A stretch of DNA of 64,000 bases from Candidatus Iainarchaeum sp. Lineage in GTDB: Archaea > Iainarchaeota > Iainarchaeia > Iainarchaeales > GCA-2688035. Below the pieces are notes generated by a model, which worked only from the letters and a program-made list of their open reading frames with translations, ran no database searches and was not told the origin of the DNA. The translations under genes and the position numbers were made by a program. How positions within the stretch are numbered: the first letter of the stretch is position 1; the number at the start of each line of letters is the position of its first letter. The DNA lies in NCBI GenBank assembly GCA_028713935.1, contig JAQTNI010000001.1:1464-65463 (forward strand). The letters are read 5' to 3'. This document shows, piece by piece, positions 2,759 to 54,131 of this stretch.

Positions 2759-3016
2759 AAAATCACCGGATAGATAATTATTGCCTAAGTTTTTAAGCTT
2801 TTCCGATTACTTTTTGTGTATATTAATTGGTTTTGTAAGTCTCTTTTTGAGACCGCAACTACCGCTTTTGGGATTGTTCAATTTGCACCTTGCAAATTGT
2901 TTCTTTTCCAACCTTTTTAAGGGCAGAATTGCTGGGCAATTGCGTTTTTCCTTGAAAAACGCTTCTTTTCCCGAGGCTTTTCTTTCCAAGAAAAGGCTCT
3001 GCGGGAGGTTTTTTGA

Positions 3017-3676
3017 TTGAACAAGAATGATTTTTCAGTTGCACTGCAGAAAATGCGCGATTCAAGCAAGCAGAGAAAGTTTACACAGTCAATTGAGTTA
3101 ATGATTAATCTCAAAGGCCTGGATTTTAAAAAAGCAGAGAACCAGCTTGACCTGAAAGTCGTAATGCCTTTTGCCACTGGAAGAACCAGGGGAAAAGTCA
3201 TTGTTTTTGCAAAAAGCAAGAGTTTTGCGGATGAAATAAAAGGCAAGGCTGACAGAGTAATAATGGAATCCGATATTCAGGGCTTGACAAAAAAGGATGT
3301 TTCCCAGATTATTGAGGCTTTTGATGTTTTGCTGGCTGAAGGCCCAGTAATGCTTACTATTGGAAAATTTTTGGGGCAACAGCTTGCGCCAAAAAACAAG
3401 ATGCCCCGCCCTATTCAGCCAAATGTTTCCCAGATTGAAAGCGCTTTGTCTGAAATGTCTTCTGTTACAAAGGTGACAAACAAAAAGGGAAAGCCAATGC
3501 CTGTTATGCAGGTTGTGATTGGCAATGAAAAAATGCAGAACGAGCAGTTGTCTGCAAATGCCTTTGCTATTTTTGACGCTGTCCTGAATGCTGTTCCCGG
3601 AAAAACCCAGAGCATTAAATCTGTTTTTTTGAAGGAAACAATGGGCCCTTCAATAAAAGTTGGTGAGAAAGAATGA
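3017..3676 (+). CDS. rpl1: 50S ribosomal protein L1 (uL1), TTG start
   Basis: L1 family motifs (KFTQSIEL, GKVIVFA). GGGAGG Shine-Dalgarno 9 nt upstream of TTG. Overlaps L10 by ATGA. Confidence 0.9.
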   Translation: MNKNDFSVALQKMRDSSKQRKFTQSIELMINLKGLDFKKAENQLDLKVVMPFATGRTRGKVIVFAKSKSFADEIKGKADRVIMESDIQGLTKKDVSQIIEAFDVLLAEGPVMLTIGKFLGQQLAPKNKMPRPIQPNVSQIESALSEMSSVTKVTNKKGKPMPVMQVVIGNEKMQNEQLSANAFAIFDAVLNAVPGKTQSIKSVFLKETMGPSIKVGEKE

Positions 3677-4498: not shown

Positions 4499-4801
4499 AT
4501 GGAGTATGTGTATTCGGCCTTATTGCTGCATTCGGCAAAAAAAGAAATTTCTGAAGATGGGCTTTCCCATGTCCTGAAAGCAGCCGGCATAACAGCGGAT
4601 TCCACAAAAATAAAGGGCCTTTTGTCAGCCCTGAAAGAAGTGAACATTGACGAGGCAATCCAGAAAGCTGCAATGCCAGTGGCAGTTGCTGCAACAGCAG
4701 TTGAAGCCAAAACAGAAGAAAAAGGCGCAAAGGAAAAGGCACAGGAAGAAGCCAAATCCGAAGAAGCGGCAGCAGAAGGCTTGAGCTCATTGTTCGGGTA
4801 A
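4499..4801 (+). CDS. rpl12: 50S ribosomal protein L12 / P1 stalk protein
   Basis: [12 protein letters not shown]-terminus, Ala/Glu-rich hinge and C-terminal ...GLSSLFG. GAGGTGA RBS upstream of the ATG at 4499; the ORF-track start at 4409 is too early. Confidence 0.85.
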
Positions 4802-5048
4802 AGCCTTCTCTTTTTTTTATTTTTTAAAAATGCCTTGTTTTTCCCACATTGCAAAAGCATTTGCTTTTGCGATGCGTCACAAAGCCCTGCTTTGCAACGA
4901 GGCTTTTGAAAGCGAGCATTGCGAAGCATTTTTCCCAAGGCTTTTTGCCTTGCAAAAAGGCTTTTGCGAGCGCTTCAAAAGGCTTTTGCCTAATTTTAAA
5001 TATTTAAACCAGCCTTAATTTTCACGCGTTACCAGGTTAAATATTGGC

Positions 5049-5320
5049 TTTTATATTCCAGAGGCAATAATTATTTTGGCATTGGTTTTTTTCAGGCTCA
5101 CCGAAAAAAACATTGTACTCAGGCAACTGGAGGTGGTTGGTAGCGTTTCAGCGGCAACCATTTTTTGCGATTGTTTGATTGACTAATGCCAGCTGCAGGG
5201 GAAATTGCTTCCTTGTTTTGGAACGTCCTTCCCAGGCGAAACTGGTTTAATCTCTGTATGAGAAATAGTCTCCAAAAAAAAGCAATTCCCTGCAGTACTT
5301 TATTTTTGAATTTTTTTCAG
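5049..5320 (+). ncRNA. Candidate structured non-coding RNA (unknown class) with TATA-like promoter and oligo-T terminator
   Basis: TTTTATATT at 5049-5057. GC-rich region with two stem-enclosed domains: GGCATT..AATGCC at 5076-5188, and a 16-bp long-range inverted repeat (5193-5210 pairs with 5280-5295). A T-run follows. There is no ORF here. Confidence 0.3.
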
Positions 5321-24744: not shown

Positions 24745-24867
24745 TGCAAAACACTTGAGCTATTGTTTCAATGTTTCTCTGCTTGACATCGTGCCAGGGC
24801 TTTTGCCGAAGGCTAGACTTGCGAAGCAAGTCTTTCTTTCCCTGGGCTTTCTTTTTAAGAAAGGCCA

Positions 24868-25045
24868 GTGGGGTTACAGGGATTTGAACCCTGATCAACT
24901 GGTCGCTCATTATTTTACCCTGCCTTTTTGTTGTTTACCAAAGAAAAATGGTTCTTTTCTTTGGGCAACTTACACTTTCTTTTCTTGCCAAGAAAAGAAA
25001 GGGCAGGTCTGGAGCCAGTCGCACTGCCTGGTTATGCTATAACCC
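24868..25045 (-). tRNA. tRNA-Trp (anticodon CCA) with a ~105-nt intron in the anticodon loop
   Basis: Acceptor GGGGTTA/TAACCCC, D-stem GCAT/GTGC, anticodon stem ACTGG/CCAGT, loop CTCCAGA, T-arm CAGGG-TTCAAAT-CCCTG, discriminator A. Intron is roughly 24907-25011. Confidence 0.75.
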
Positions 25046-25264
25046 CGTTGGGATAATTGAAGAATTTAAAGTTTTTAAAATCAGAGGTTTTGCATTGCAA
25101 AACCTTTCTTTCCCAGGGCTTTCTTTTTTAAAGAAAGGCCTGCCAAAGTAGCTCACTTGTTGAGTGCATAAAACAACTTTGTTTTGTTGTGTTTTTAAAG
25201 ATATGGAATTTTTTATTTTTCAAATCCGTCAATTTAATATATTCTAATTGCGCTACTATTACTG

Positions 25265-28200
25265 GTGTTTGTTTTGGCTGACAAAAAAGGTTCTTCGGAA
25301 GCTGGAGAAGAGATTTTTTCAGATGTTTTTGGCGTTGACGAGGATGAAAAGCGCGCCAGGGAAAGGCTTGCCAAGGAAACAGCTGAAAAAGAAGCAAAGC
25401 AAAAAGCCTCAAAAGGCGAGAAAGAGGAAAAAGAATTGCCTTCTGAAAAAGAAGAGCCTGAAATTGTTGCCTTGAAGAAAACCCAAAAAAAGCCTGCCCA
25501 AAAAATTCCAGTTGAGGCCAAAGCCACTGTTACTGATTCTCCCGAGCAAAAGGAATTGAAGCAGAAAATCAAAAAGGTTATTCTGGCAAAGGCAGCAAAG
25601 GCCGCTGAAAAGGATTCTGCAAAAATTTTTGACAAGGAAATTGACATCAAGGAAAAAGGAGTTAAGGAAAAAGAAAAAGAAGAAGAGCCAGAGCCTGAAG
25701 AAGAAAACGAAAAAGAAGATTCAAAAGAAATTGTGCCAAAATTTGCCCTTAATTTTTTGCAGGATTCAGAAGGAAGCGTTTTCATTGGCAGGAAAACAAG
25801 TGTTTTCCAGGAATATGGCAATGAAGCAGGCCTGTATATTGGGAATATTGCAGAGCCTTCCTTTGAAGGAAAAAAAGTTTTATTGGATGGTTTAAATCCG
25901 CATGTTGTTTTTGTCTGCGGGGCAAGAGGCAGCGGAAAATGCCTTACTGGAGACACTCTAATTGCGCTTGAAGATGGTACAGTAAAGCCGATAAGAGAAC
26001 TGGAACATGATAATCAAAAAGTTCTTTCAATGGATTCTGAAATGAAAATTGTTGCCACTCAAAAAAGCGGTTTTTTTAAAAGGAGAGTAAATAAGATTCT
26101 GGAAGTTAACTTAAAAAGTGGCAAAAAGATTAGGTTGACCCCTGAGCATCCTTTGTTTACAATGCAAGGCTGGAAGCCTGCGCAGGAGTTGAGAGAAGGA
26201 AGCAGAATTGCTGCTGTTAATAAACAGGTTGGGCTTGGTTTTTCAAGTAGCAGGCAGGAAAGCGTTTGTTATTCTGCCGCAAGGGCAAAATTAATGCAAA
26301 TTAATTTGCTTAACAAGGATGAGTTGGTGCAAAATGCTTCTTCAAATATTTTTTGGGACGAAATAACTGAAAAAACAGAATTATCAGGAGAATTTGAAGT
26401 TTTTGATATCAGTGTTCCAACACACCACAATTTTGTTGCAAATGATATTATTGTCCACAACAGTTATCTGCTTGGAGTGCTTGCTGAAGAGCTTGCCTTG
26501 AAGAATCCCAATGTCGGCCTTATTGTAATCGACCCTGTAGGGGTTTTTTGGGGAATGAGGCATCCTAACAAGGAAGAAAAAGAGCTTGAGGCTCTTGCAA
26601 AAACAGGCCTTCTTCCGAACGGCCTGAATAATCTCAAAGTTTTTATTCCAAAGGGAATGAAGGACAAGGTTCCGAAAAACACTTTTGATGCGGCTTTCAG
26701 CATGCCTGCTTCTCTTCTAACTGCAGAAGACTGGTGCCTAACTTTTGGCATTGACAGGTTTTCCCCAAGCGGCCTGCTCCTTGAAAAAGTTTTGCACAAG
26801 ACAAAGCACGGCTATAAGACAAAAGAAGGAAAATATGTAAAATCAGAGGATGTTTTTGATTTGGAGGACATTATTGAATGCCTGCATAATGACAATGAAA
26901 TAAATTCAGCCGAGCTTGGCTATAAGGCCGATTCAATAAGGGCCCTTGCTTCCAGGTTTGATGCCGCAAAAGCCTGGGGAGTTTTTGATGAAAGAGGAAC
27001 TCCTTTGATTGAAATTTCAAAGGAAAACCAGTTGACAATTATTGACACTTCTTTTTTGGATGACAATGTTTCCGCGCTAATAATCGGGATTCTTGCAAGA
27101 AGAATTCTTGCCGCGAGAAAATTAAGCACTCGCAGGGAAGCTGCTTCAAAATTCAAGGATGATTCTGTTGAAAACCTAATGGAATTGGGAATCCCTCCCA
27201 CATGGCTGTTTATTGATGAGGCACACACTTTGATTCCAAGCGGAAACATGAAAACTCCTGCAAGCAGTGCCCTTGTTGAATATGTGAAGCAGGGAAGGCA
27301 GCCTGGCTGCAGCCTTGTTTTTGCAACACAGCAGCCGAGCGCAATTGACACCCATGTTTTAAGCCAGCTTGACATTATTGTGGCGCACAAGCTTGTTTTT
27401 GACGATGACATAAAGGCAGTTTACAAGAGAACTCCAACTATTATTCCAAAGCAATACAAGAACAGCAATTTTATCAAAACACTGCCAGTTGGAATGGGAA
27501 TTGTTGGAGATAGAAGAGAAGAAACCTCGCGCGCTTTTGTAATGAAAATCAGGCCAAGAATGTCACAGCACGAAGGCAGGGAAGCAGTTACTTCTGAAAG
27601 GTCTTCACAGGTTTTTGACAAATCCAAGGTTCTTGCCCTTGCAATTGGAATGGCTTATGCCCAGATTGAAAGAAAGCCGACAGAAGCCTCTTACATTAGC
27701 CAGATTGTCCAGACTCTTAATACAAAATACAAGTCAACTTTGCAGCTTTCAGATGTTCTTGATGCGCTTGAAAAAAAAGGCGTCGGAATCAATCCCAAAA
27801 CTTCTGTTTTAAGCATTCCGGACGAGGAAGCAGAGCATGAAGTAGTGGAAGAAGAAGTCCGTGAAACAGAAGAAGAAGTGCAAAAAGAAGTGAAATCAGT
27901 TTCACCAGAAGAAAGCATTTCACTAATGGCTTTTCCAGCCAATCTTCAGGAAGAATCAGCAAGAAGGCTTTTTGACAGGCTGAGAAAGAAAAAAACTCTC
28001 GGCTTGTTTGGAAAAGAAGAGCTGATTGAAAAAATTTCCTTGAAATATTTGCCAATTTTCCATGTTACTTTCAATGTTTTCAATGAAAAAGGCTCTTTCA
28101 ATATTGCAGAGGCCTATGTTGATTCCCATTCAGGGGAATTTTTGAATTTTGATTTTGAACAAAAACAATTTGTTGAATCCCACGGCTTAAGCCTGCTTTC

Positions 28201-28657
28201 GGAAATGGGCACTTTGGAATCAAGAATCCTGCTTTTGCTTTCCGAAAAAAAATCCTCTTTTGAAGACCTTCAAAACAGGCTTGGAGAAGAAGAAAAAAGC
28301 ATTGAAAAGGCAATTGATTCGCTTATGGAAGCAAATGCAATTGCGCTTGAACAGTCAAAAGAAAAAGACTGGTTTTTTTTGAAAACAAAAATTGATTTGC
28401 CAAAAAGCCCCTTGCATTCCCTGCTTACAAGCGTGAAAAAACTGCCAGTGGAAGAAATTTCCGCTTCCAATCTTGAAAAGCCGCAGTTTGACAAAACAAA
28501 ATTCCAGGAGGTTTTTTCAAAAATCTGGGGAAAAGTCCAGATAAAAAGCATTTCAGAAGTTTTTTTGCCAAGATATGAGGCAATTATCAGGAAACAGGAC
28601 AATTCAATAAGGGCAATTTCAGTTGACGCCTACTCAGGAAAAGAAATTGCGGACTAA
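25265..28657 (+). CDS. HerA/FtsK-superfamily ATPase (DUF87-like) with an acidic Lys/Glu-rich N-terminal extension, an intein in the P-loop and a ~370-aa C-terminal extension
   Basis: Walker A is GARGSGK[intein]SYLLG. Walker B LFIDEAHTLIP. HerA-type ATQQPSAIDTHVLSQLDIIVAHKL. Confidence 0.7.
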   Translation: MFVLADKKGSSEAGEEIFSDVFGVDEDEKRARERLAKETAEKEAKQKASKGEKEEKELPSEKEEPEIVALKKTQKKPAQKIPVEAKATVTDSPEQKELKQKIKKVILAKAAKAAEKDSAKIFDKEIDIKEKGVKEKEKEEEPEPEEENEKEDSKEIVPKFALNFLQDSEGSVFIGRKTSVFQEYGNEAGLYIGNIAEPSFEGKKVLLDGLNPHVVFVCGARGSGKCLTGDTLIALEDGTVKPIRELEHDNQKVLSMDSEMKIVATQKSGFFKRRVNKILEVNLKSGKKIRLTPEHPLFTMQGWKPAQELREGSRIAAVNKQVGLGFSSSRQESVCYSAARAKLMQINLLNKDELVQNASSNIFWDEITEKTELSGEFEVFDISVPTHHNFVANDIIVHNSYLLGVLAEELALKNPNVGLIVIDPVGVFWGMRHPNKEEKELEALAKTGLLPNGLNNLKVFIPKGMKDKVPKNTFDAAFSMPASLLTAEDWCLTFGIDRFSPSGLLLEKVLHKTKHGYKTKEGKYVKSEDVFDLEDIIECLHNDNEINSAELGYKADSIRALASRFDAAKAWGVFDERGTPLIEISKENQLTIIDTSFLDDNVSALIIGILARRILAARKLSTRREAASKFKDDSVENLMELGIPPTWLFIDEAHTLIPSGNMKTPASSALVEYVKQGRQPGCSLVFATQQPSAIDTHVLSQLDIIVAHKLVFDDDIKAVYKRTPTIIPKQYKNSNFIKTLPVGMGIVGDRREETSRAFVMKIRPRMSQHEGREAVTSERSSQVFDKSKVLALAIGMAYAQIERKPTEASYISQIVQTLNTKYKSTLQLSDVLDALEKKGVGINPKTSVLSIPDEEAEHEVVEEEVRETEEEVQKEVKSVSPEESISLMAFPANLQEESARRLFDRLRKKKTLGLFGKEELIEKISLKYLPIFHVTFNVFNEKGSFNIAEAYVDSHSGEFLNFDFEQKQFVESHGLSLLSEMGTLESRILLLLSEKKSSFEDLQNRLGEEEKSIEKAIDSLMEANAIALEQSKEKDWFFLKTKIDLPKSPLHSLLTSVKKLPVEEISASNLEKPQFDKTKFQEVFSKIWGKVQIKSISEVFLPRYEAIIRKQDNSIRAISVDAYSGKEIAD
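25940..26461 (+). mobile_element. Mini-intein (174 aa, no homing-endonuclease domain) inserted after the Walker A lysine
   Basis: Starts Cys-LTGDTLIALEDG (Hint block A), ends ...NDIIVHN followed by Ser +1. Removing it restores GxxxxGKS. Confidence 0.8.
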
Positions 28658-32475: not shown

Positions 32476-33510
32476 TTATTCCATGCTTTGCAAAAGCCCC
32501 ACTCTTCCCAGTTCCAAAAAATATTCGTTTTCAGGGTTATTGATTCCTTTTTTGCATTTTGTGTAGGTCGCAAGAATAACATAGATTGCGTGCCCGAGTT
32601 TTATGTAAGTTGGCAATGCTTCAAGTTCTTTCTGTGTTAGCGGAATAATTTTTTGGTATTCTTCCAAAACGATTTCAATGTTTTTTTCAGTTTTGCTTTT
32701 GCTTTCCTGCTCAAAAAGCACAGTGCAAGCCATTACCGCAAGCTCCTGTATTCTTGGATAATAATTTGCACATGCAAAATCAATAAGCCACAATTTTCCG
32801 TTTTTATCCTTCATTATGTTTGTTTTTGTCAAATCGCCATGAACAAAACAATGGGGCAATTTGTTTATTTCAAGTGCTTTTAAATCTTTCACCAATGGAA
32901 GAATTTTTTTCAGGTCTTCAGAATCCAGAAATTTTTTTGCTATTCGGAATTCCTTCAAAAAACTTGTTATTGCCCAATGGTCATAAACAAACTTTGGCTT
33001 TATTTTCATGCTGTTTATTATTGCGGCCTGCTTTGCCAAAAACCTTATTTCCAAATCGGCCAGTTTTTCTTTTGATTCAAACAAAGTTTTGCCTTCAATA
33101 AAATCCATTGCAACAAGCCGCAATTTTTTTCCCCTGACATTTAAAATCTGCAAATGCCTGTTTTTTGCCTCCAATAATTTTGGAGTGACCACATTGCTTT
33201 CCAAGGCCTTTTCCATGATTTTGACATATCTCTTGCATTCTTGGAGCGTTCTAAAATCAGCAAAGACTTTGACAAAAAAATTCCCTTTTTTTGTTTGCAG
33301 GGCAAAATTAAAATCTTCATAGCCAATTGCAACAAGCCTGTTTGAAACAAAAGCGCCAAGCCCAAAGCATTTGCAAACAGCTTCAGAAATATCTTCCAAT
33401 CTGCCTTTGAAGCCAATCCTTTTTTTGAATAAATCCCCCTCAGCCAAGCCAATCACTTTTTTTATTAGCAATCTGTTTACCAAAGATTCAAGTTCTTTTT
33501 CTTTGGGCAA
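32476..33510 (-). CDS. Aminoglycoside/choline-kinase-like phosphotransferase (APH family); start uncertain
   Basis: HGDLTKTNIMKDKNGKLWLIDF catalytic loop. The annotated TTG start lies inside a tRNA-associated repeat module. Confidence 0.6.
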   Translation of the reverse strand: MPKEKELESLVNRLLIKKVIGLAEGDLFKKRIGFKGRLEDISEAVCKCFGLGAFVSNRLVAIGYEDFNFALQTKKGNFFVKVFADFRTLQECKRYVKIMEKALESNVVTPKLLEAKNRHLQILNVRGKKLRLVAMDFIEGKTLFESKEKLADLEIRFLAKQAAIINSMKIKPKFVYDHWAITSFLKEFRIAKKFLDSEDLKKILPLVKDLKALEINKLPHCFVHGDLTKTNIMKDKNGKLWLIDFACANYYPRIQELAVMACTVLFEQESKSKTEKNIEIVLEEYQKIIPLTQKELEALPTYIKLGHAIYVILATYTKCKKGINNPENEYFLELGRVGLLQSME

Positions 33511-33550
33511 CTTACACTTTCTTTTTCTTTCAAAGAAAAAGGAAGGGCAG

Positions 33551-33711
33551 TGCGTCCGCCGGGATTCGAACCCGGGTTACGAGCTCTTTCCTGCTTCAAT
33601 TTTGTTTATTATTTGTTGAAGTTCTTTCTTTTGGGCAACTTACACTTTTCTTTCTTTCAAGAAAGAAAAGGGCAGTGGGAAGCTCGAATCCTACCGCTAG
33701 ATTACAGACGC
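33551..33711 (-). tRNA. tRNA-Gly (anticodon CCC) with a ~90-nt intron
   Basis: Acceptor GCGTCTG/CGGACGC (one G-U pair), D-loop AGCGGTAGG, anticodon stem CGAGC/GCTCG, loop TTCCCAC, T-arm CCGGG-TTCGAAT-CCCGG. Intron is roughly 33585-33674. Confidence 0.75.
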
Positions 33712-34551
33712 GTTTTCTTTTTTTTCTGTTGTGCCTGTTTCTGTTTGCTGTAATTGTGCTGATGGCGCTATTAAGTATGCCTGTTGGTTTTCTATTTTTA
33801 TTTGCATTCCTGGCAGGTAGATTTTTACTAGGTTTTTTTCTGTGGGAGGAAATTTTTCCGCCAGTGCGAGCAATTGCAGTGTTTGTTTTTTTTCTATTAC
33901 AAGGTTGTTTTGCTCTGTTTTTGCCTGCAGAGATTCTTTTATTTGGTTTGCAAAGTTTGGGTTTGTGCATTCAATGCGGATTTGTTGCAGTTCTTGTTTT
34001 TCAATTATTGCAAAAATTGTGGGAATTGTTTCCTGTGAAAGAGAAATTTTTTTGAAGTCATTAAAATTCAGTTCTTTTAGTGCTGTTATCTGGTGCAAGA
34101 GCACGTCTGAAAGGTATTTTAGTTGTTGTGCCCGTTTGTCTGTTTTTTCCTTTAGTTCAAGCAAATCGGAAATGTAAAAATTGCTGCTTGTTTTTGCTGC
34201 TTTCAGCAAATCGTTGTCTGCTTTGCTTCTTTCAATGAGGGTTTGCAGCATTTTTACTATTGTTTCAACCTCTTCAACAGGGTTTTTTGATGCCATGCTT
34301 TCATTTAGCCTTGTCAATAGCTTGTTTTTCATTTCAGAATTGATTTCAACAAGGCCCTTGTCTGTTACAAAAATCTTGTTTGCCTGCCTCTGCACAACGC
34401 CAATTGCAGCCAAATCTTTCAAAGTCCTACTTAAAGCAGCGCGAGCAGAATTAATGCTGCCATATTCAGAAGTGATTCTGTTAAGCAGCTCGTTGTAATC
34501 AATTCCGGGATTCTGCTTAAGAATTAACAAAAAATTGTTTCTCTGGGTCAC
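33697..34551 (-). CDS. Winged-helix DNA-binding protein with a long helical C-terminal region
   Basis: N-terminal wHTH-like segment. Its stop overlaps the first ~15 nt of tRNA-Gly. Confidence 0.45.
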   Translation of the reverse strand: MTQRNNFLLILKQNPGIDYNELLNRITSEYGSINSARAALSRTLKDLAAIGVVQRQANKIFVTDKGLVEINSEMKNKLLTRLNESMASKNPVEEVETIVKMLQTLIERSKADNDLLKAAKTSSNFYISDLLELKEKTDKRAQQLKYLSDVLLHQITALKELNFNDFKKISLSQETIPTIFAIIEKQELQQIRIECTNPNFANQIKESLQAKTEQNNLVIEKKQTLQLLALAEKFPPTEKNLVKIYLPGMQIKIENQQAYLIAPSAQLQQTETGTTEKKENASVI

Positions 34552-45837: not shown

Positions 45838-46108
45838 TTTCACCAAGATTTTAAAAAACCATATCAATAATACTTTTTGAGTTGGGAGCAAGGTGGGCAT
45901 GAACAAGGTTCATGCCTGCCAAATTTTTACTTCTCCAAAAGAAGCAATTAAAAACCACTTGATTCCTAATTTTAACACTGCAGAGGTGGCAAGGCCTTTC
46001 TTTGCCTTGCAAAGAAAGCCCTGGGAAAGAAATACTTTTTGCCAATGCAAAAAGTGCTTCGCAAAGGAAACCCCTGGGAAAAAATTGCCGCCAATAAAAG
46101 AAAATCAT

Positions 46109-46302
46109 GCAGAGGTGGCAGAACTTGGTAAATGCGCCGGCCTTGAGAAGCCTTTCTTTCTAAAGAAAGAAAGCCTTGGGAAAGAAACAGTTTGGCTCTG
46201 CCAAACTGTAGTTCGCTTCGCTTACATTAGAAAAAAAGATTATTATTTTTCAGGCGAGCCGGTGTCCGAAAGGGCGCGTGGGTTCAAATCCCATCCTCTG
46301 CG
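46109..46302 (+). tRNA. tRNA-Ser (anticodon TGA) with a ~108-nt intron and long variable arm
   Basis: Acceptor GCAGAGG/CCTCTGC, anticodon stem CCGGC/GCCGG, loop CTTGAGA, variable arm TGTCCGAAAGGGCGC, T-arm GTGGG-TTCAAAT-CCCAT. Intron is roughly 46149-46256. Confidence 0.7.
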
Positions 46303-50622: not shown

Positions 50623-50868
50623 GCGGGGGTGGCAGAGCGGTCTAATGCGCACGCCTGGAAAGGCCTTTTCTTGCAAGCAAGAAAAGCCCTGGGAAAAGAA
50701 CAATTTGCTTTGCAAATTGGTTGATTCCCCGGTTCTCCCCAAAGGATAATTTCAGTTAGAAATTTTTTTCTTTGGGGTGGACTGCAGACCTTTCTTTTTA
50801 TTAAAAAGAAAGGGATATAGAGAGCGTGTTCTCGAAAGGGAGCGCGAGTTCAAATCTCGTCCCCCGCG
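50623..50868 (+). tRNA. tRNA-Ser (anticodon GGA) with a ~160-nt intron; its 3' end is the integration target (attL)
   Basis: GCGGGGGTGGCAGAGCGGTCTAATGCG 5' half, anticodon stem CACGC/GCGTG, loop CTGGAAA, long variable arm, T-arm GCGAG-TTCAAAT-CTCGT, acceptor 3' CCCCCGC. Confidence 0.75.
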
Positions 50869-50958
50869 TTAAACGAAAAGTTCAAATCCAATTGAACGGA
50901 AAATTCAAAAAAGAAGCTTTTTTATTTTGCTTGGAGCATAATTGTTATTGGTGGTATA

Positions 50959-51180
50959 ATGGATCAAACTTTTAAGGTTGTGATTGAGAACGGCATGGAC
51001 GGTTATTTAATTGCAGAAGTTCCAGAATTGCCAGGTTGCTATTCTCAAGGAAAAACCATGGAAGAGCTTTTAGGCAATATTAAAGAGGCAATTGAACTCT
51101 ATTTGGAATCGCTGCAAGAACTGGATAAAAAACCAGAAAAACGGTTTGTTGAAATAAAAGAAGTTGTCGTAAATGCCTAA
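50959..51180 (+). CDS. hicB: HicB-like antitoxin (UPF0150)
   Basis: GYLIAEVPELPGCYSQGKTMEELLGNIKEAIELYLE. Confidence 0.75.
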   Translation: MDQTFKVVIENGMDGYLIAEVPELPGCYSQGKTMEELLGNIKEAIELYLESLQELDKKPEKRFVEIKEVVVNA

Positions 51181-51400
51181 GCTCAAGCTGCTTGCGCCAA
51201 AAGAACTAATAAAAATCATTGAAAAACTCGGCTTCAAGTTTTTACGGCAAAAAGGAAGCCACGCAACCTTTGTCCATCCAGACGGAAGAATGACAGTAAT
51301 ACCAATACACAGCAACTCAAAAATAGATAGAGGATTGCTCTTGAAAATAATAAAAAAAGAACTGCAAATGGAAAGGCAAGAATTCGAAATATTATTGTAA
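51173..51400 (+). CDS. hicA: HicA-like mRNA interferase toxin
   Basis: KELIKIIEKLGFKFLRQKGSHATFVHPDGR. Confidence 0.75.
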   Translation: MPKLKLLAPKELIKIIEKLGFKFLRQKGSHATFVHPDGRMTVIPIHSNSKIDRGLLLKIIKKELQMERQEFEILL

Positions 51401-51441
51401 AAAAGGGCTGTGTTATAAATTGTCCGAAATGCAAGAAGAAA

Positions 51442-51710
51442 ATGGTTGAGGAAAAAGGCGAAACTCCCGAAGGCGCTACATACCATTATCACAAGTGTCC
51501 TAACTGCTGCGAGGAAATAGTTGACATGAAACAGTTGCACGCTGTTGCACAGCAATACAGGGAAATGAAAAAATACACTGCAAAAATCAGCAAATGGGGA
51601 GAAGCCTCGGCATAAGAATTCCAAAAGAACTCGCAGAACAACACTCCCTGAAACAAAACGGCGAAGTAACCTTGGTTCCGGAAAAAAAAGCAATAAAAAT
51701 AGTTGCATAA
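51442..51710 (+). pseudogene. Zinc-ribbon / AbrB (SpoVT)-domain gene split by an apparent +1 frameshift in a G4 run (~51596-51599)
   Basis: Frame 1 reads ...CPNCC...KISKWGEASA*. Frame 2 continues MGRSLGIRIPKELAEQ...VTLVP (AbrB swapped-hairpin motif). The W-G and S-L-x-I-R-I-P halves of one AbrB motif lie in two different frames. Confidence 0.45.
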
Positions 51711-51724
51711 AACGAAGCCAGAAA

Positions 51725-52168
51725 GTGCTTGGGCTGATTCAAAAGATAAATATAAAAATACGGGAAGTGCAATATATGGCCATGGCACGAACACTCAAAC
51801 AAAGAAAAAACCGAAGAAAAACAGGTGGCGTACTTGCTGTCAGCCCCAATCCACGTGAGGTATATCGTGAAGCTGATGGTTGGAGTGTTTTTCCAGATGT
51901 TCGGTACTATGTGCCTGGTAAGCGCATGACTAATTTTCAAGTGGCTCTCCGATTTTCCAATAAAAAAGGTTCCGATCGTTGGCGCTATAACCAATTTTTG
52001 AAACAACATGGTTTTATGGTAACAATGGGCGGTGATATTGTAAAGTCGCTTCCCGGCAAGAAATTTAGAATGCTAACAAAAACAGAGAAAGACAAAGTGT
52101 TACGCTTGTTAAAGTCGGGCTGGGCAGTATCTTATGGCCCAAGGCCAAAAAATACACGACAAAAATAA
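51725..52168 (+). CDS. Conserved hypothetical protein, paralog A, ending 8 nt before the att repeat region
   Basis: About 55% identical to the ORF at 53250-53687. Shared motifs RRKTGGVL, FPDVRY, GSDRWxYNQFLK, GDIVKxLPG and C-terminal SGWAxxYGPxPK. Confidence 0.5.
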   Translation: MLGLIQKINIKIREVQYMAMARTLKQRKNRRKTGGVLAVSPNPREVYREADGWSVFPDVRYYVPGKRMTNFQVALRFSNKKGSDRWRYNQFLKQHGFMVTMGGDIVKSLPGKKFRMLTKTEKDKVLRLLKSGWAVSYGPRPKNTRQK

Positions 52169-52279
52169 CCTGATGCTTGTCACGCGCATCATTAACGGCA
52201 TAGTGTTCAAATCTCGTCCCCCGCGTGTTTTTATTTCATAAACAATATGTTTTTAAATTGAAAACAGAATGTTTTTATT

Positions 52280-52822
52280 ATGCTTGCGAGTGAATTGTTT
52301 TCTTCAAAGGAGAGAATTGGGCTTATCAAGATTCTTTTTTATACGCCCAATTTGGAATTAAAAGTTAGGTCTCTTGCTCGGTTTGCAAAAGTAAGCCCTG
52401 CTCTTGTTTCCGGCACGATTGCGATTCTTAAGAAACAAGGAGCTATAAACAAAGGCAAAATTGATTTGTTGCATCCTTCTGCAAGGGCCTTGAAAATACT
52501 ATTGAATATTGAAAGCCTCACCTCTGCCAAATTTGTTCCTGAAATAAGAAGCATTTTCAAGGATTGCAATGGCATTGGTTTGTATGGTAGTTGGGCAAAC
52601 GGAACCAATTCAAAAGACAGTGATTTGGATTTTTGGGTAAAATCAGAATCTGAAAGCGAGGAAAAGTCGGCTAAAATAAGTCGTTTTGTTAAGCAGAAGC
52701 TTGGCTTGGAAGCCAGCATAATTATTCTTACACAAAAAAGGCTGAAAGAATTGAAAGAAAAGGATTTTGTTTTTTATTCAATGCTGTACAATTGTTTTTT
52801 GTTGTGGGGCGAAGGAATATGA
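52280..52822 (+). CDS. Minimal nucleotidyltransferase (MNT) with N-terminal wHTH
   Basis: GSWANGTNSKDSDLDF pol-beta-like nucleotidyltransferase motif. Confidence 0.7.
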   Translation: MLASELFSSKERIGLIKILFYTPNLELKVRSLARFAKVSPALVSGTIAILKKQGAINKGKIDLLHPSARALKILLNIESLTSAKFVPEIRSIFKDCNGIGLYGSWANGTNSKDSDLDFWVKSESESEEKSAKISRFVKQKLGLEASIIILTQKRLKELKEKDFVFYSMLYNCFLLWGEGI

Positions 52823-53235
52823 TTGATTTTAATGAGTGCCTTGCAAAAGGCCTTTTGGCAAGAATTCCCGCTTCAAGGGAAAAAGCTTTGCAGAGTATTG
52901 AGAAAGCAAAAGAACTATTGGAAGAAGCAAAAGCAAGCCTTGAAGAGGAAAGAATCAATTCCACAGTAATAGTTGCCTATCTTGCAATTTTTCATGCTGC
53001 AAGGGCACTGCTTTTCAAAGATGGTTACAGGGAAAAAAGCCACGAATGCGTAATCCGCTATCTGGAAGAAAAATATCCTGAAATAAAACCAGGGCAGATT
53101 GAAGCCTTGGAAAAATACAAAAGTGAAAGAACCCACACACAATACGATGTGAGTTATAATCCAAGCGAAGAACAAGCAGAAAAAATGATAAAATTCACGG
53201 AAAAATTCATCCAAACAATAGAAGAAATGATTTAA
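52819..53235 (+). CDS. HEPN-domain protein (partner of the MNT)
   Basis: IVAYLAIFHAARALLFKDGYREKSHE HEPN pattern. ATGA overlap with the MNT gene. Confidence 0.65.
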   Translation: MIDFNECLAKGLLARIPASREKALQSIEKAKELLEEAKASLEEERINSTVIVAYLAIFHAARALLFKDGYREKSHECVIRYLEEKYPEIKPGQIEALEKYKSERTHTQYDVSYNPSEEQAEKMIKFTEKFIQTIEEMI

Positions 53236-53249
53236 GCTGGTTCGCTTCT

Positions 53250-53687
53250 ATGCCTTGTTTTTTGGAAAATTATAAATATGGGCATGTGCTTAATACTATT
53301 GGTAGTTTAATGCGCGGTGTAAACAAAAATAGGAGAAAAACTGGTGGCGTACTCCGTGTTGGGAAACGACCACTTGAAGTTGGGATTTCGTTGGAAGATA
53401 GCGGTTTTCATGTTTTTCCCGATGTTCGATACCGCAGTGACCGAATGAGTAGATTTAAAACTTCTCGCAGGTTTTCTAACAAAATAGGTTCAGATCGCTG
53501 GCACTATAACCAGTTTTTAAAACCTCGCGGCTTTTGGATTACCCAAGCGGGCGATATTGTAAAACCCCTTCCGGGCAATAAATTTAGGTTTTTAAAGCTA
53601 TCCGAATTTCGGAAAGTTAGGGATTTGTTATGGTCGGGTTGGGCAAAGAGATACGGCCCAAAACCAAAAACAACTAAGCGAAAATAG
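53250..53687 (+). CDS. Conserved hypothetical protein, paralog B, ending just before the att repeat
   Basis: See paralog A. The start is probably the internal MRGVNKNRRK near 53310. Confidence 0.5.
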   Translation: MPCFLENYKYGHVLNTIGSLMRGVNKNRRKTGGVLRVGKRPLEVGISLEDSGFHVFPDVRYRSDRMSRFKTSRRFSNKIGSDRWHYNQFLKPRGFWITQAGDIVKPLPGNKFRFLKLSEFRKVRDLLWSGWAKRYGPKPKTTKRK

Positions 53688-54131
53688 CATCATTCTTGCC
53701 ACGCGCATCTTTAACAGTAAGGTGTTCAAATCTCGTCCCCCGCGTAATTTCAATTAATAGTCCAGAGTGTTGGCATATTAGTTGTAAGATAAAATCTTGG
53801 TTTGCTCATATTTGCCCTGTGTGCTTTTGCGAGAGCAAAATATTGGATTAGAGGCCGCAGAGGCTGTTTATTGGTGATGTTTTTGCGTTCTTGCTTTTCT
53901 AATTCTTTTTGGAGCCCACCTGTAACTTACAGATTTTCTGTTGTGATGATTTTTTTTGCTTAATAACTTTAAGAACAGGGTTCCAATTCTTCGGGCATTT
54001 TCCTGCGGATTTGAAGAACAATCAACAATATACAACGGTTTCTTATGTTGTATTGCAAGAGCCTTTGCTTCAAGTGCGCAGGCATAACATTCACGTTCGA
54101 TATCTTTGATACTTACAGAATGCCGTGTTTT

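What the first reader, a model, noticed from the sequence alone, without database searches (positions are those of the whole stretch)
33505..33711. tRNA-Gly(CCC) intron is duplicated immediately 3' of the gene, and the copy overlaps a protein start
The ~90-nt intron (33585-33674) contains CTGCCCTTTTCTTTCTTgaaAGAAAGAAAAGTGTAAGTTGCCCAAAAGAAAGAAC. An almost identical ~50-nt copy (33505-33550) sits directly after the discriminator base in the 3' trailer. So the sequence following exon 1 equals the sequence following exon 2. This looks like an insertion or duplication footprint of an intron-type element, or a shared processing/termination module. The downstream kinase ORF (32476-33510) is annotated to start with a TTG inside this repeat, so the true CDS start is probably further in.
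Basis: seen in the sequence. Interest (0 to 1): 0.65.

Follow-up and report, generated by a model that had tools for sequence, protein, structure and literature searches.

The report
Triplex-type repeat module at tRNA boundaries
The "duplicated intron" is two copies of a short repeat found in many tiny DPANN archaea next to tRNA and gene boundaries, and its three co-varying segments are arranged as a hairpin plus third strand would be in a nucleic-acid triple helix, a design I could not find described anywhere.

Summary
The repeat is real. tRNA-Gly(CCC) (33551-33711, minus strand) has a 90-nt canonical intron. A ~58-nt module starts at the first intron base and again at the first base after the discriminator. 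It is not a local duplication. A third copy lies in the intron of an unannotated tRNA-Trp, and the trailer copy resembles that one more than the Gly-intron copy. In a syntenic relative (L151) the trailer copy is present but the intron holds a different module, so the trailer copy is the older one.

The module is CTGCCC, pyrimidine arm Y, loop, purine arm R1, linker GTGTAAGTTGCCC, purine tract R2. It occurs in about 45 DPANN archaeal loci. The arms differ between copies but co-vary three ways, and R2 is the mirror of R1: 273/276 positions fit, and 29 copies fit the mirror order against 0 for the reverse. That is the layout of an intramolecular triple helix. The hairpin end almost always faces a boundary (46 vs 1): splice sites, tRNA ends, stop or start codons, and one 23S rRNA intron.

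In the Gly intron its first bases form the intron-side helix of the splice motif. Function is inferred, not shown: probably a self-folding end-cap or insulator that also spreads between sites.

The parts
33676..33711 (-). tRNA-Gly(CCC) exon 1 (36 nt, ends ...UUCCCA, position 37)
   Evidence: Rfam RF00005, 46.3 bits; aragorn -i; sequence parse
33586..33675 (-). Canonical 37/38 intron, 90 nt. The splice motif reads: stem CGAGC/GCUCG, central helix UUCC/GGAA, bulges CA|C and AG|A, intron-side helix UGC/GCA.
   Evidence: sequence; pairing read by hand. The RNAfold minimum-energy structure draws a 7-bp stem plus a 4x4 loop instead of the two bulges.
33551..33585 (-). tRNA-Gly(CCC) exon 2 including discriminator A33551; no encoded CCA
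33603..33675 (-). Module A, intron copy. CTGCCC 33670-33675; Y TTTTCTTTCTT 33659-33669; loop; R1 AAGAAAGAAAAG 33645-33656; linker TGTAAGTTGCCC 33633-33644; R2 AAAAGAAAGAA 33622-33632; 12-nt spacer; box ATAAACA 33603-33609.
   Evidence: hairpin -13.6 kcal/mol, z = -4.0
33474..33550 (-). Module A, 3' trailer copy. CTGCCC 33545-33550; Y TTCCTTTTTCTTT 33532-33544 (one C:A mismatch with R1); R1 33517-33529; linker 33505-33516; R2 AAAGAAAAAGAA 33493-33504; spacer; box GTAAACA 33474-33480. Orthologous copy in L151:1591-1667.
   Evidence: hairpin -10.4 kcal/mol, z = -1.9
32476..33456 (-). APH-family phosphotransferase CDS. Probable start is GTG 33456 or TTG 33447 (SD-like GTGAT just upstream), not TTG 33510.
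   Evidence: (P0001, 323 aa)
24869..25046 (-). Unannotated tRNA-Trp(CCA) with a 105-nt intron
   Evidence: Rfam at the E-value threshold, 48.8 bits; aragorn -i
24932..25006 (-). Module A, tRNA-Trp intron copy (arms 3,4,2; box GTAAACA 24932-24938). CCUGCCC pairs with GGCAGGG near the intron's 3' end.
24831..24866 (-). Module B (GGCC-hairpin-GCCC-AGGG-AAAGAAAGA) starting 2 nt after the tRNA-Trp 3' end
25103..25140 (-). Module B, about 57 nt upstream of tRNA-Trp
45993..46032 (+). Module B following a 12-nt copy (45980-45991) of the tRNA-Ser(TGA) 5' end
46150..46187 (+). Module B at the 5' end of the tRNA-Ser(TGA) intron (tRNA 46109-46302)
50662..50700 (+). Module B at the 5' end of the tRNA-Ser(GGA) intron (tRNA 50623-50869). 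The same tRNA carries module A in AR10 (L025).
50765..50813 (-). Antisense hairpin-plus-mirror unit at the 3' end of the tRNA-Ser(GGA) intron
2962..2997 (-). Module-B-type unit whose hairpin end abuts the Shine-Dalgarno sequence GGGAGG of the + strand gene starting at 3017

Best explanation
**What it is (shown).** The two copies belong to a dispersed family of about 55-75-nt modules found in DPANN archaea. On one strand the module reads: CTGCCC, pyrimidine arm Y, a 3-4-nt loop, purine arm R1 (reverse complement of Y), a linker (here GTGTAAGTTGCCC), then purine tract R2. R2 is the mirror image of R1, that is, the parallel complement of Y.

**Structure (inferred from covariation).** Three co-varying segments on one strand is the layout of an intramolecular triple helix: a hairpin plus a third strand. 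As written, the third strand is a purine strand. The complementary strand has the classical U.A-U / C+.G-C layout.

**Placement (shown).** The hairpin end lies against a boundary.
- In the Gly intron, C|UGC of CTGCCC supplies the third bulge base and the intron-side helix of a canonical bulge-helix-bulge splice motif.
- The trailer copy starts at the first base after the discriminator. It is conserved at that site in a syntenic relative, with all three arms changed together.

**Function (inferred).** The upstream ORF overlaps the tRNA, and the 94-103-nt tRNA-kinase spacer (to GTG 33456 or TTG 33447) is largely filled by the 77-nt module. The upstream ORF, tRNA-Gly and kinase are therefore probably one transcript. 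RNase Z cleavage would then leave the module as the structured 5' end of the kinase mRNA. In that reading the module is a self-folding end-cap or insulator at RNA processing sites.

**Spread (shown in part).** Modules are exchanged or inserted between sites, so the intron copy here is a recent replacement and not the source of the trailer copy.
For: **Family and distribution**
- The exact 16-mer is found in about 45 DPANN loci (Iainarchaeum including AR10, Pacearchaeota, Nanoarchaeia, Aenigmatarchaeota), always with the same architecture. The bacterial hits lack the architecture and match the ~280 hits expected by chance.

**Three-way covariation**
- R2 is 99.1% identical to the parallel complement of Y. 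In 34 of 37 copies both C/G positions match, against a mean of 8.2 (max 17) in shuffles.
- Run-length order fits the mirror only in 29 copies and the reverse only in 0.
- 273 of 276 triples are T-A*A or C-G*G. All 40 C-G pairs have G in R2, against 5 of 40 with R2 reversed and a mean of 12.9 with R2 from another copy.
- A linker-agnostic scan finds 15 units in the window against 1.15 expected, and 85 units in 41 loci with many different linkers.

**Orientation**
- Of units within 12 nt of a tRNA exon boundary, 46 have the hairpin end facing it and 1 the tail end.
- Contexts include 5' and 3' splice sites and tRNA 3' and 5' ends, stop and start codons, and a 23S rRNA intron.

**Splice motif**
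- The bulge-helix-bulge geometry of the Gly intron can be read from the sequence.

**Orthologous locus**
- Syntenic L151 keeps the trailer module with arms (4,4,2) against (3,5,2) and an identical 19-nt extension, but has a module-B intron. L137 and L127 also carry other intron modules.

**Co-transcription**
- The ORF 33697-34551 overlaps the tRNA.
- Five of seven 3'-flank cases have a co-directional ORF just beyond the unit.
Against: - No expression, end-mapping or structure-probing data exist, so triple-helix formation is inferred from covariation only.
- In the orientation present in this window the third strand is purine-rich and A-rich. Purine-motif triplexes with RNA strands are contested (Brown 2020, PMC7583470).
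- Both orientations occur inside transcribed introns, so no single RNA strand can be 'the' functional one.
- Two of seven 3'-flank cases have no downstream ORF, and many copies lie inside introns, where an mRNA end-cap role cannot apply.
- Direct repeats flanking some copies and module swapping fit a purely selfish element equally well.
- Arm changes at the orthologous site could result from gene conversion by another copy and not from stepwise compensation.
- The census was seeded with an exact 16-mer, so conservation of the linker is partly an ascertainment effect. The L151 linker differs at 3 positions.
Confidence: 0.55

Rival explanations
1. The module is a purely selfish miniature mobile element with no host function. 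It inserts or converts into tRNA introns and gene boundaries. It is seen there because, in a very compact genome, those are the only places where an insertion is tolerated. The three-strand fold would serve its own mobilisation, for example as a single-stranded DNA intermediate.
For: - Direct repeats of 12-25 nt of the flanking gene end bracket copies in L067, L073, L085, L032/L048, the window at 45980/46109, L064 and L138.
- The module type differs at orthologous introns: Gly in the window versus L151/L137, and Ser-GGA in the window versus AR10.
- One MAG carries many copies with different arms.
- Tandem amplifications occur in L015, L018 and L073.
- Purine-motif triplexes are established for DNA, not RNA.
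Against: - No transposase, integrase or reverse transcriptase is associated with the copies. There are no terminal inverted repeats, and the direct repeats vary in length, unlike classical target-site duplications.
- The trailer copy is retained at the same site in L151 with a consistent three-way arm change.
- The 46:1 orientation rule and the 0-3-nt spacing to mature tRNA ends are hard to explain by tolerance alone.
- CUGCCC has a clear role in the splice motif.
Confidence: 0.3
2. The module acts as a transcription terminator or roadblock at the DNA level. The T-rich arm, together with the R1/R2 mirror repeat folding into H-DNA, would stop or pause RNA polymerase after tRNAs and genes.
For: - Sense copies sit 0-3 nt after tRNA 3' ends and 3 nt after stop codons.
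- The trailer copy has a T5 run.
- H-DNA is known to stall polymerases (PMC11667243 abstract).
Against: - The same unit sits inside at least 17 introns that must be transcribed through.
- T runs are kept short (3-5 nt) by interspersed C.
- Duplex H-DNA needs only the mirror pair R1/R2, which leaves the co-varying Y arm on the same strand unexplained.
- The kinase has no room for its own promoter after the module.
Confidence: 0.12
3. The module is a two-state RNA switch. Y pairs either with R1 (the local hairpin) or, antiparallel, with R2, and no triple helix forms.
For: - For the isolated Trp copy RNAfold prefers Y:R2 plus GGCAA:UUGCC (-14.2 kcal/mol).
- Equal spacing of the two C/G positions allows antiparallel Y:R2 pairing in most copies.
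Against: - When the run lengths are asymmetric, R2 always follows the parallel order: 29 fit the mirror only and 0 the reverse only. With R2 reversed, only 5 of 40 G's stay in register. Selection for antiparallel pairing would give the opposite order.
- The loop/linker complementarity is specific to the Trp copy.
Confidence: 0.08
4. One reading: a recent local duplication copied the Gly intron sequence into the adjacent 3' trailer, or left an insertion footprint there.
For: The two copies are only 125 nt apart, in the same orientation, both after ...CA|CTGCCC.
Against: - The trailer copy is closer to the Trp-intron copy, 80% against 63%, and shares its extension.
- The arms differ in all three segments.
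- Syntenic L151 has the trailer copy but a different intron module.
Confidence: 0.04

Closest known systems
Related introns shared by different archaeal tRNA genes ('large-scale tRNA intron transposition', Fujishima et al. 2010, as summarised in PMC4090602)
   Same: Near-identical sequence blocks occur in the introns of different tRNAs (Gly, Trp, Ser, Cys, Asn, Leu...). The bulge-helix-bulge motif sits at the junctions. Gain or replacement is inferred at the DNA level, by an unknown mechanism.
   Different: Described for Thermoproteales, not DPANN. Here only a 5' (or inverted 3') module is shared, not whole introns. The same module also lies outside introns, at tRNA ends, ORF ends and in an rRNA intron. 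No hairpin-plus-mirror-tract design was reported there.
tRNA fragment plus mobile element plus full tRNA (Sugahara et al. 2012, PMC3293823)
   Same: A partial copy of a tRNA 5' end lies upstream of the complete gene with inserted DNA in between, as at window 45980-46120, L064 and L138.
   Different: There the insert is a 1.8-kb element encoding a recombinase. Here it is about 100 nt of structured modules with no gene.
MALAT1 / MEN-beta / PAN ENE-type RNA triple helices, with the 3' end made by RNase P next to a tRNA-like structure (review PMC7583470)
   Same: In the antisense orientation at tRNA 5' flanks (L007, L039, L059) the RNA would read U-rich tract, linker, U-rich tract, loop, A-rich tract, GGGCAG, then the tRNA. 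RNase P cleavage would leave an A-rich 3' end buried in a U.A-U / C+.G-C triple helix.
   Different: Those examples are eukaryotic or viral, with a different fold (an internal loop clamping a tail). The copies in this window have the opposite orientation (one U-rich and two A-rich strands). No experimental evidence exists here.
H-DNA-forming homopurine/homopyrimidine mirror repeats (PMC11667243)
   Same: R1, linker and R2 form a purine mirror repeat with a short spacer.
   Different: H-DNA needs only the mirror pair in supercoiled duplex DNA. Here a third co-varying segment (Y) on the same strand gives a complete single-stranded triplex design. The units are short, dispersed and tied to boundaries.
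Bacterial extragenic structured repeats (REP/BIME, Correia elements) and prokaryotic MITEs (PMC11602168)
   Same: Short, multi-copy, hairpin-forming units at gene boundaries that can end up in transcripts. There are signs of mobility.
   Different: No terminal inverted repeats and no fixed target-site duplication. The defining feature is a mirror third strand. There is a strong tie to tRNA and rRNA splice sites.

Membership tests
Archaeal bulge-helix-bulge tRNA intron (canonical) | Intron between positions 37 and 38 of the anticodon loop | tested here: met
   aragorn -i reports i(37,90); Rfam places a 93-nt insert in the anticodon loop
Archaeal bulge-helix-bulge tRNA intron (canonical) | Two 3-nt bulges separated by a 4-bp helix, flanked by helices | tested here: met
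   Read from the sequence: CGAGC/GCUCG; UUCC/GGAA; bulges CA|C and AG|A; UGC/GCA. The RNAfold minimum-energy structure draws an internal loop instead.
Archaeal bulge-helix-bulge tRNA intron (canonical) | Cleavage by the splicing endonuclease and ligation | not testable with these tools
   No expression data
Transposed / related tRNA intron families | High sequence similarity between introns of different tRNA genes | tested here: met
   Gly and Trp introns in the window; 13 sense and 4 antisense intron copies in other loci
MITE | Terminal inverted repeats at both ends | tested here: not met
   Most units are single and one-ended. Only the Ser(GGA) intron has facing units.
MITE | Target-site duplication of fixed length | tested here: inconclusive
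   Direct repeats of 12, 15, 16, 17, 22 and 25 nt flank some copies and are absent at others
H-DNA / intramolecular triplex motif | Homopurine mirror repeat in register with a Watson-Crick partner | tested here: met
   273/276 isomorphic triples; 29:0 for the mirror order
H-DNA / intramolecular triplex motif | Physical formation of the triple helix | not testable with these tools
   Needs melting, probing or a solved structure
ENE / MALAT1-like RNA triple helix | Two U-rich strands clamping an A-rich tract on one RNA | tested here: not met
   The window copies, read in the tRNA sense, have one U-rich and two A-rich strands. The feature is met only for antisense copies elsewhere.
Archaeal intrinsic terminator | Oligo-T run at the 3' end of the gene | tested here: inconclusive
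   T5 in the trailer copy, but the same units lie inside introns
Any Rfam 15 family other than tRNA | Covariance-model match | tested here: not met
   No match at E<=1 over the modules

The most novel reading that the evidence does not exclude
DPANN archaea use a conserved, modular nucleic-acid triple helix (a hairpin plus a mirror third strand) as an end-cap at sites cut by tRNA-processing and splicing enzymes. In one orientation this would be an archaeal counterpart of the MALAT1 logic, where RNase P cleavage next to a tRNA leaves an A-rich 3' end buried in a U.A-U triplex. In the other orientation it would be a natural purine-motif (A.A-U / G.G-C) triple helix made of RNA, or of transient single-stranded DNA. 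No natural example of that kind is established.
Probability: 0.3. Interest if true: 0.92.

Novelty: new variant of a known kind. Interest (0 to 1): 0.78.

Why it matters
- Three-way covariation in a mirror (parallel) register cannot be made by any copying mechanism. It therefore indicates selection for a three-stranded fold in dozens of independent copies across several DPANN lineages.
- If the fold forms in RNA, it would be the first natural purine-motif RNA triplex, or an archaeal ENE-like 3'-end protector coupled to tRNA processing. If it forms in single-stranded DNA, it points to an unknown mobilisation or replication-linked mechanism.
- It gives a concrete, sequence-defined handle on an open question: how archaeal tRNA introns are gained and exchanged.
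- There are practical consequences too. The modules hide tRNA genes from default finders. The linker's TTG CCC AAA GAA creates spurious N-terminal extensions in gene calls.

Tried and rejected
- **Default tRNA tools.** Default ARAGORN and Rfam at the gathering threshold missed tRNA-Trp and tRNA-Ser(GGA). I had to use aragorn -i and the Rfam E-value mode.
- **Exact-protein look-ups.** The 344-aa kinase ORF and the HD/NUDIX ORF were not on record. The source was identified only through homologue P0001.
- **Viral scans.** The 10 hits for the 16-mer are coding-sequence chance matches, and module B gave none. I dropped the virus link.
- **Promoter/terminator scan.** The scan is of the bacterial type and was uninformative. 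TATA-like boxes read by eye were inconsistent, so I make no promoter claim.
- **Leader-trailer pairing.** I looked for a GGGCAG in the leaders of tRNAs with trailer modules, and the converse, which would form a leader-trailer splice-like helix. None was found.
- **C/D-box guide RNA in the Trp intron.** No C or D boxes were seen by eye.
- **Microsatellite artefact.** (AAAG)n periodicity was rejected because irregular run patterns such as (4,3,5), (7,4) and (5,6,0) are matched exactly.
- **Wobble counts to pick the RNA strand.** 0 T:G and 1 C:A in about 370 pairs, too few to decide.
- **Literature.** Searches for a prior description of the design found none. The library is incomplete, so absence is not proof.
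Full report
**1. The observation**

On the minus strand, Rfam finds a tRNA at 33551-33711 with a 93-nt insert in the anticodon loop. ARAGORN with introns enabled calls it tRNA-Gly(CCC) with a 90-nt intron after position 37. Default ARAGORN misses it.

Exon 1 is 33676-33711, the intron 33586-33675 and exon 2 33551-33585. The intron begins CTGCCCTTTTCTTTCTTGAAAGAAAGAAAAGTGTAAGTTGCCCAAAAGAAAGAA. The sequence directly after discriminator A33551 begins CTGCCCTTCCTTTTTCTTTGAAAGAAAAAGAAAGTGTAAGTTGCCCAAAGAAAAAGAA.

The exact 16-mer GTGTAAGTTGCCCAAA occurs three times in the window. Chance recurrence of a given 16-mer in 64 kb is about 3e-5.

**2. It is not a local duplication**

The third 16-mer lies in the intron of an unannotated tRNA-Trp(CCA) at 24869-25046 (-). 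Over 65 nt the trailer copy is 80% identical to the Trp-intron copy, whereas the Gly-intron copy is only 63% identical to it (family D2). The trailer copy also shares the extension CTTTGGTAAACA with the Trp copy.

A second, related module (B: GGCC-hairpin-GCCC-T/A-GGG-AAAGAAA, usually followed by a second hairpin) lies at several sites:
- just after tRNA-Trp;
- about 57 nt upstream of tRNA-Trp;
- at the 5' ends of the introns of tRNA-Ser(TGA) and tRNA-Ser(GGA);
- after a 12-nt copy of the tRNA-Ser(TGA) 5' end.

**3. The family beyond the window**

About 45 are DPANN archaea: many Candidatus Iainarchaeum MAGs, the complete AR10 genome, Pacearchaeota, Nanoarchaeia and Aenigmatarchaeota.

The rest are unrelated bacteria without the surrounding architecture. 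About 280 chance hits are expected for a 16-mer in 596 Gb.

Every archaeal hit has the same build: CTGCCC, pyrimidine arm Y, a 3-4-nt loop, purine arm R1, GTGTAAGTTGCCC, purine tract R2. Viral-contig hits are coding-sequence chance matches. Rfam 15 has no family for the unit.

The kinase homologue P0001 names the source as 'Candidatus ainarchaeum sp.'.

**4. Three-way covariation in a mirror register**

The arms differ between copies, even within one genome, but the three segments change together.
- Anchored at the two GCCC motifs, R2 is 99.1% identical to the parallel complement of Y.
- In 34 of 37 distinct copies both C positions of Y equal the G positions of R2. The mean is 8.2 (max 17) when R2 is paired with Y from another copy.
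- These tracts are low-complexity, so I used copies with asymmetric run lengths. 29 fit only the mirror order, 0 fit only the reversed (antiparallel or direct-repeat) order, 3 are symmetric and 2 fit neither.
- Position by position, 273 of 276 triples are T-A*A or C-G*G. All 40 C-G pairs have G in register in R2. With R2 reversed this falls to 5 of 40, and with R2 from another copy the mean is 12.9 (max 22).
- A scan that ignores the linker (any pyrimidine/purine hairpin followed within 22 nt by a mirror tract) finds 15 units in the window. Simulated sequence gives 1.15 (max 3).
- The same scan finds 85 units in 41 archaeal loci with many different linkers, several sharing GTTGC just before R2.

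A mirror relation cannot arise by template copying. An inverted repeat plus a mirror repeat on one strand is what a single-stranded intramolecular triple helix requires. Duplex H-DNA would need only R1 and R2.

In the orientation found in the window the third strand is purine-rich (A.A-U / G.G-C). The complementary strand has the classical U.A-U / C+.G-C layout. According to Brown 2020 (PMC7583470), folded RNAs commonly use the pyrimidine motif, and purine-motif triplexes with RNA strands are contested. Which strand folds, and whether it is RNA or DNA, remains open.

**5. Placement**

Intron-aware tRNA calls, checked by eye, give the following for module A:
- sense at the 5' end of canonical introns (13 copies: Gly, Trp, Ser, Cys, Asn, Leu and others);
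- antisense at the 3' end of introns, with GGGCAG abutting the 3' splice site (L002, L044, L064, L097);
- sense 0-3 nt after tRNA 3' ends (L015, L030, L037, L049, L083 and the window);
- antisense 1-2 nt before tRNA 5' ends (L007, L039, L059).

L084 carries the module at the start of an intron in 23S rRNA (Rfam LSU rRNA, 774 bits).

Copies away from tRNAs follow the same pattern:
- 3 nt after the stop codons of 155- and 785-codon ORFs;
- or, antisense, 7-11 nt before the ATG of 103-, 260- and 1239-codon ORFs, against their Shine-Dalgarno sequences.

The window unit at 2962-2997 does the same for the gene starting at 3017.

Over all linker types, 46 units within 12 nt of a tRNA exon boundary have the hairpin end facing it and 1 has the tail end.

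**6. Role in the Gly intron**

The junctions fit a canonical bulge-helix-bulge motif: anticodon stem CGAGC/GCUCG, central helix UUCC/GGAA, bulges CA|C and AG|A, and intron-side helix UGC/GCA (pairing read by hand). The constant CUGCCC thus supplies the third bulge base and one strand of the intron-side helix.

In the Trp intron CCUGCCC pairs with GGCAGGG. AR10 tRNA-Ser and the L084 rRNA intron also end with GGCAG.

**7. The orthologous locus**

L151 (kinase 82% identical) is syntenic with the window: L44e, an ORF, tRNA-Gly(CCC), the kinase, HD/NUDIX and CofD.
- Its exons differ from the window at 2 positions and its leader is almost identical.
- Its intron starts with a module-B-type unit, as in L137. 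L127 has yet another linker.
- Its trailer holds a module-A-like unit at the same position: CCGCC-TTTTCTTTTCTT-gag-AAGAAAAGAAAA-TGTAGGTTGCC-AAAAGAAAAGAA, followed by the identical 19-nt CTTGAATCTTTGGTAAACA.
- Its arms are (4,4,2), against (3,5,2) in the window, changed in all three segments.

So the trailer copy is the older, conserved element, and the module-A intron in the window is the more recent replacement. The window's trailer copy carries the only internal stem mismatch seen (C:A).

**8. The kinase start**

The TTG at 33510 is the TTG of the linker GTTGCCC, followed by CCC AAA GAA. Several lines place the real start further in:
- public protein P0001 is 100% identical but 323 aa long;
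- homologues are about 315-330 aa;
- the Pfam APH domain starts at residue 59;
- L151 starts at an ATG 20 nt after the module, aligning MNFESTDENAFKKRIGF with (VIG)LAEGDLFKKRIGF.

The start is therefore GTG 33456 or TTG 33447, outside the module. The same spurious start appears in L015.

**9. Mechanism**

*Shown:* family membership, the three-strand design, the boundary and orientation rule, the contribution to the splice motif, the conserved trailer copy and the exchange of intron modules.

*Inferred:*
- ORF 33697-34551 ends 15 nt inside the tRNA, and the 94-103-nt tRNA-kinase spacer is largely filled by the 77-nt module (33474-33550). The ORF, tRNA-Gly and kinase are therefore probably co-transcribed.
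- RNase Z cleavage would then leave the module at the 5' end of the kinase mRNA.
- Five of seven assessable 3'-flank cases have a co-directional ORF just beyond the unit.
- At tRNA 5' flanks, the antisense unit would leave an A-rich 3' end in a U.A-U triplex after RNase P cleavage, which resembles MALAT1.

I therefore favour a self-folding end-cap or insulator at processing sites that also spreads between sites (confidence 0.55).

*Rivals:*
- A purely selfish miniature element (0.30). Support comes from variable-length direct repeats of flanking gene ends, tandem amplifications and module swapping.
- A terminator or H-DNA roadblock (0.12). This is weakened by the many intron copies.
- A Y:R1 / Y:R2 switch (0.08). 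RNAfold prefers Y:R2 for the isolated Trp copy, but the 29:0 mirror order argues against it.

**10. Comparison with what is known**

- Related introns shared by different tRNAs ('intron transposition', Fujishima 2010, via PMC4090602) are the nearest precedent for the genomic behaviour.
- A tRNA fragment, an insert and then the full tRNA (Sugahara 2012) is a second precedent.
- ENE/MALAT1 triple helices and H-DNA mirror repeats are the nearest for the fold.
- REP, Correia and MITE elements are the nearest for extragenic structured repeats.
- None combines a hairpin with a mirror third strand tied to tRNA and rRNA processing boundaries, and my literature searches found no description of one.

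**Limits**
- The loci are MAG fragments.
- Some aragorn -i calls needed checking by eye.
- No expression or structural data were available.

Noticed in passing
window 24869-25046 (-) and 50623-50869 (+): tRNA-Trp(CCA) with a 105-nt intron and tRNA-Ser(GGA) with a 162-nt intron are invisible to default ARAGORN. The Ser gene is also invisible to Rfam. Both were found with aragorn -i.
   Followed up: yes
window 50870-53745: The 3' end of tRNA-Ser(GGA), GTTCAAATCTCGTCCCCCGCGT, is repeated at 52205 and 53724. The repeats bound two tandem islets with HicB/HicA and nucleotidyltransferase/HEPN pairs. Each islet ends with a paralogous ~146-aa ORF of no known family (51725-52168, 53250-53687). These look like integrated elements at a tRNA gene.
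   Followed up: partly
window 45980-46120; L064; L138: A 12-15-nt copy of the tRNA 5' end, then a module, then the complete tRNA. This is seen for tRNA-Ser(TGA) here, tRNA-Ser(GGA) in L064 and tRNA-Gly(TCC) in L138. L136 and L145 have a D-loop intron at the corresponding point of the same tRNA-Gly(TCC), which hints at a link between leader duplicates and non-canonical introns.
   Followed up: partly
window 33697-34551 (-): A 284-aa ORF with no Pfam match ends 15 nt inside tRNA-Gly (…EKKENASVI*). The overlap and sequence are conserved in L151, where no gene was called.
   Followed up: partly
window 33508-33510; L015: The module A linker provides TTG CCC AAA GAA (MPKEKE…), a spurious start that lengthens the downstream ORF in longest-ORF gene calls.
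   Followed up: yes
L084:~700-815: Module A starts an insertion or intron of about 110 nt in an archaeal 23S rRNA gene (…GAGTACA|CCTGCCC…TTTCGGCAG|TACTTATCGAC).
   Followed up: partly
L015, L018, L073: Tandem amplification of linker+R2 units (L015, L018), or of an 85-nt unit made of gene start plus module (L073). These tracts seem prone to slippage.
   Followed up: no
window 4800-5100 (-): An intergenic stretch packed with hairpins, including a module-B unit at 4929-4959. It could be an unrecognised structured RNA or a cluster of modules.
   Followed up: no
window 25265-28657 (+): A HerA-like ATPase ORF of 1130 aa interrupted by an intein (Intein_splicing/Hint domains at residues ~223-399).
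   Followed up: no
window 33603-33609, 33474-33480, 24932-24938; L039, L040, L042: A box [GA]TAAACA lies exactly 12-13 nt after R2 in all three window copies and in three other Iainarchaeum loci (6 of 39 copies; background 2% per 70-mer). It marks a sub-family, and its meaning is unknown.
   Followed up: partly
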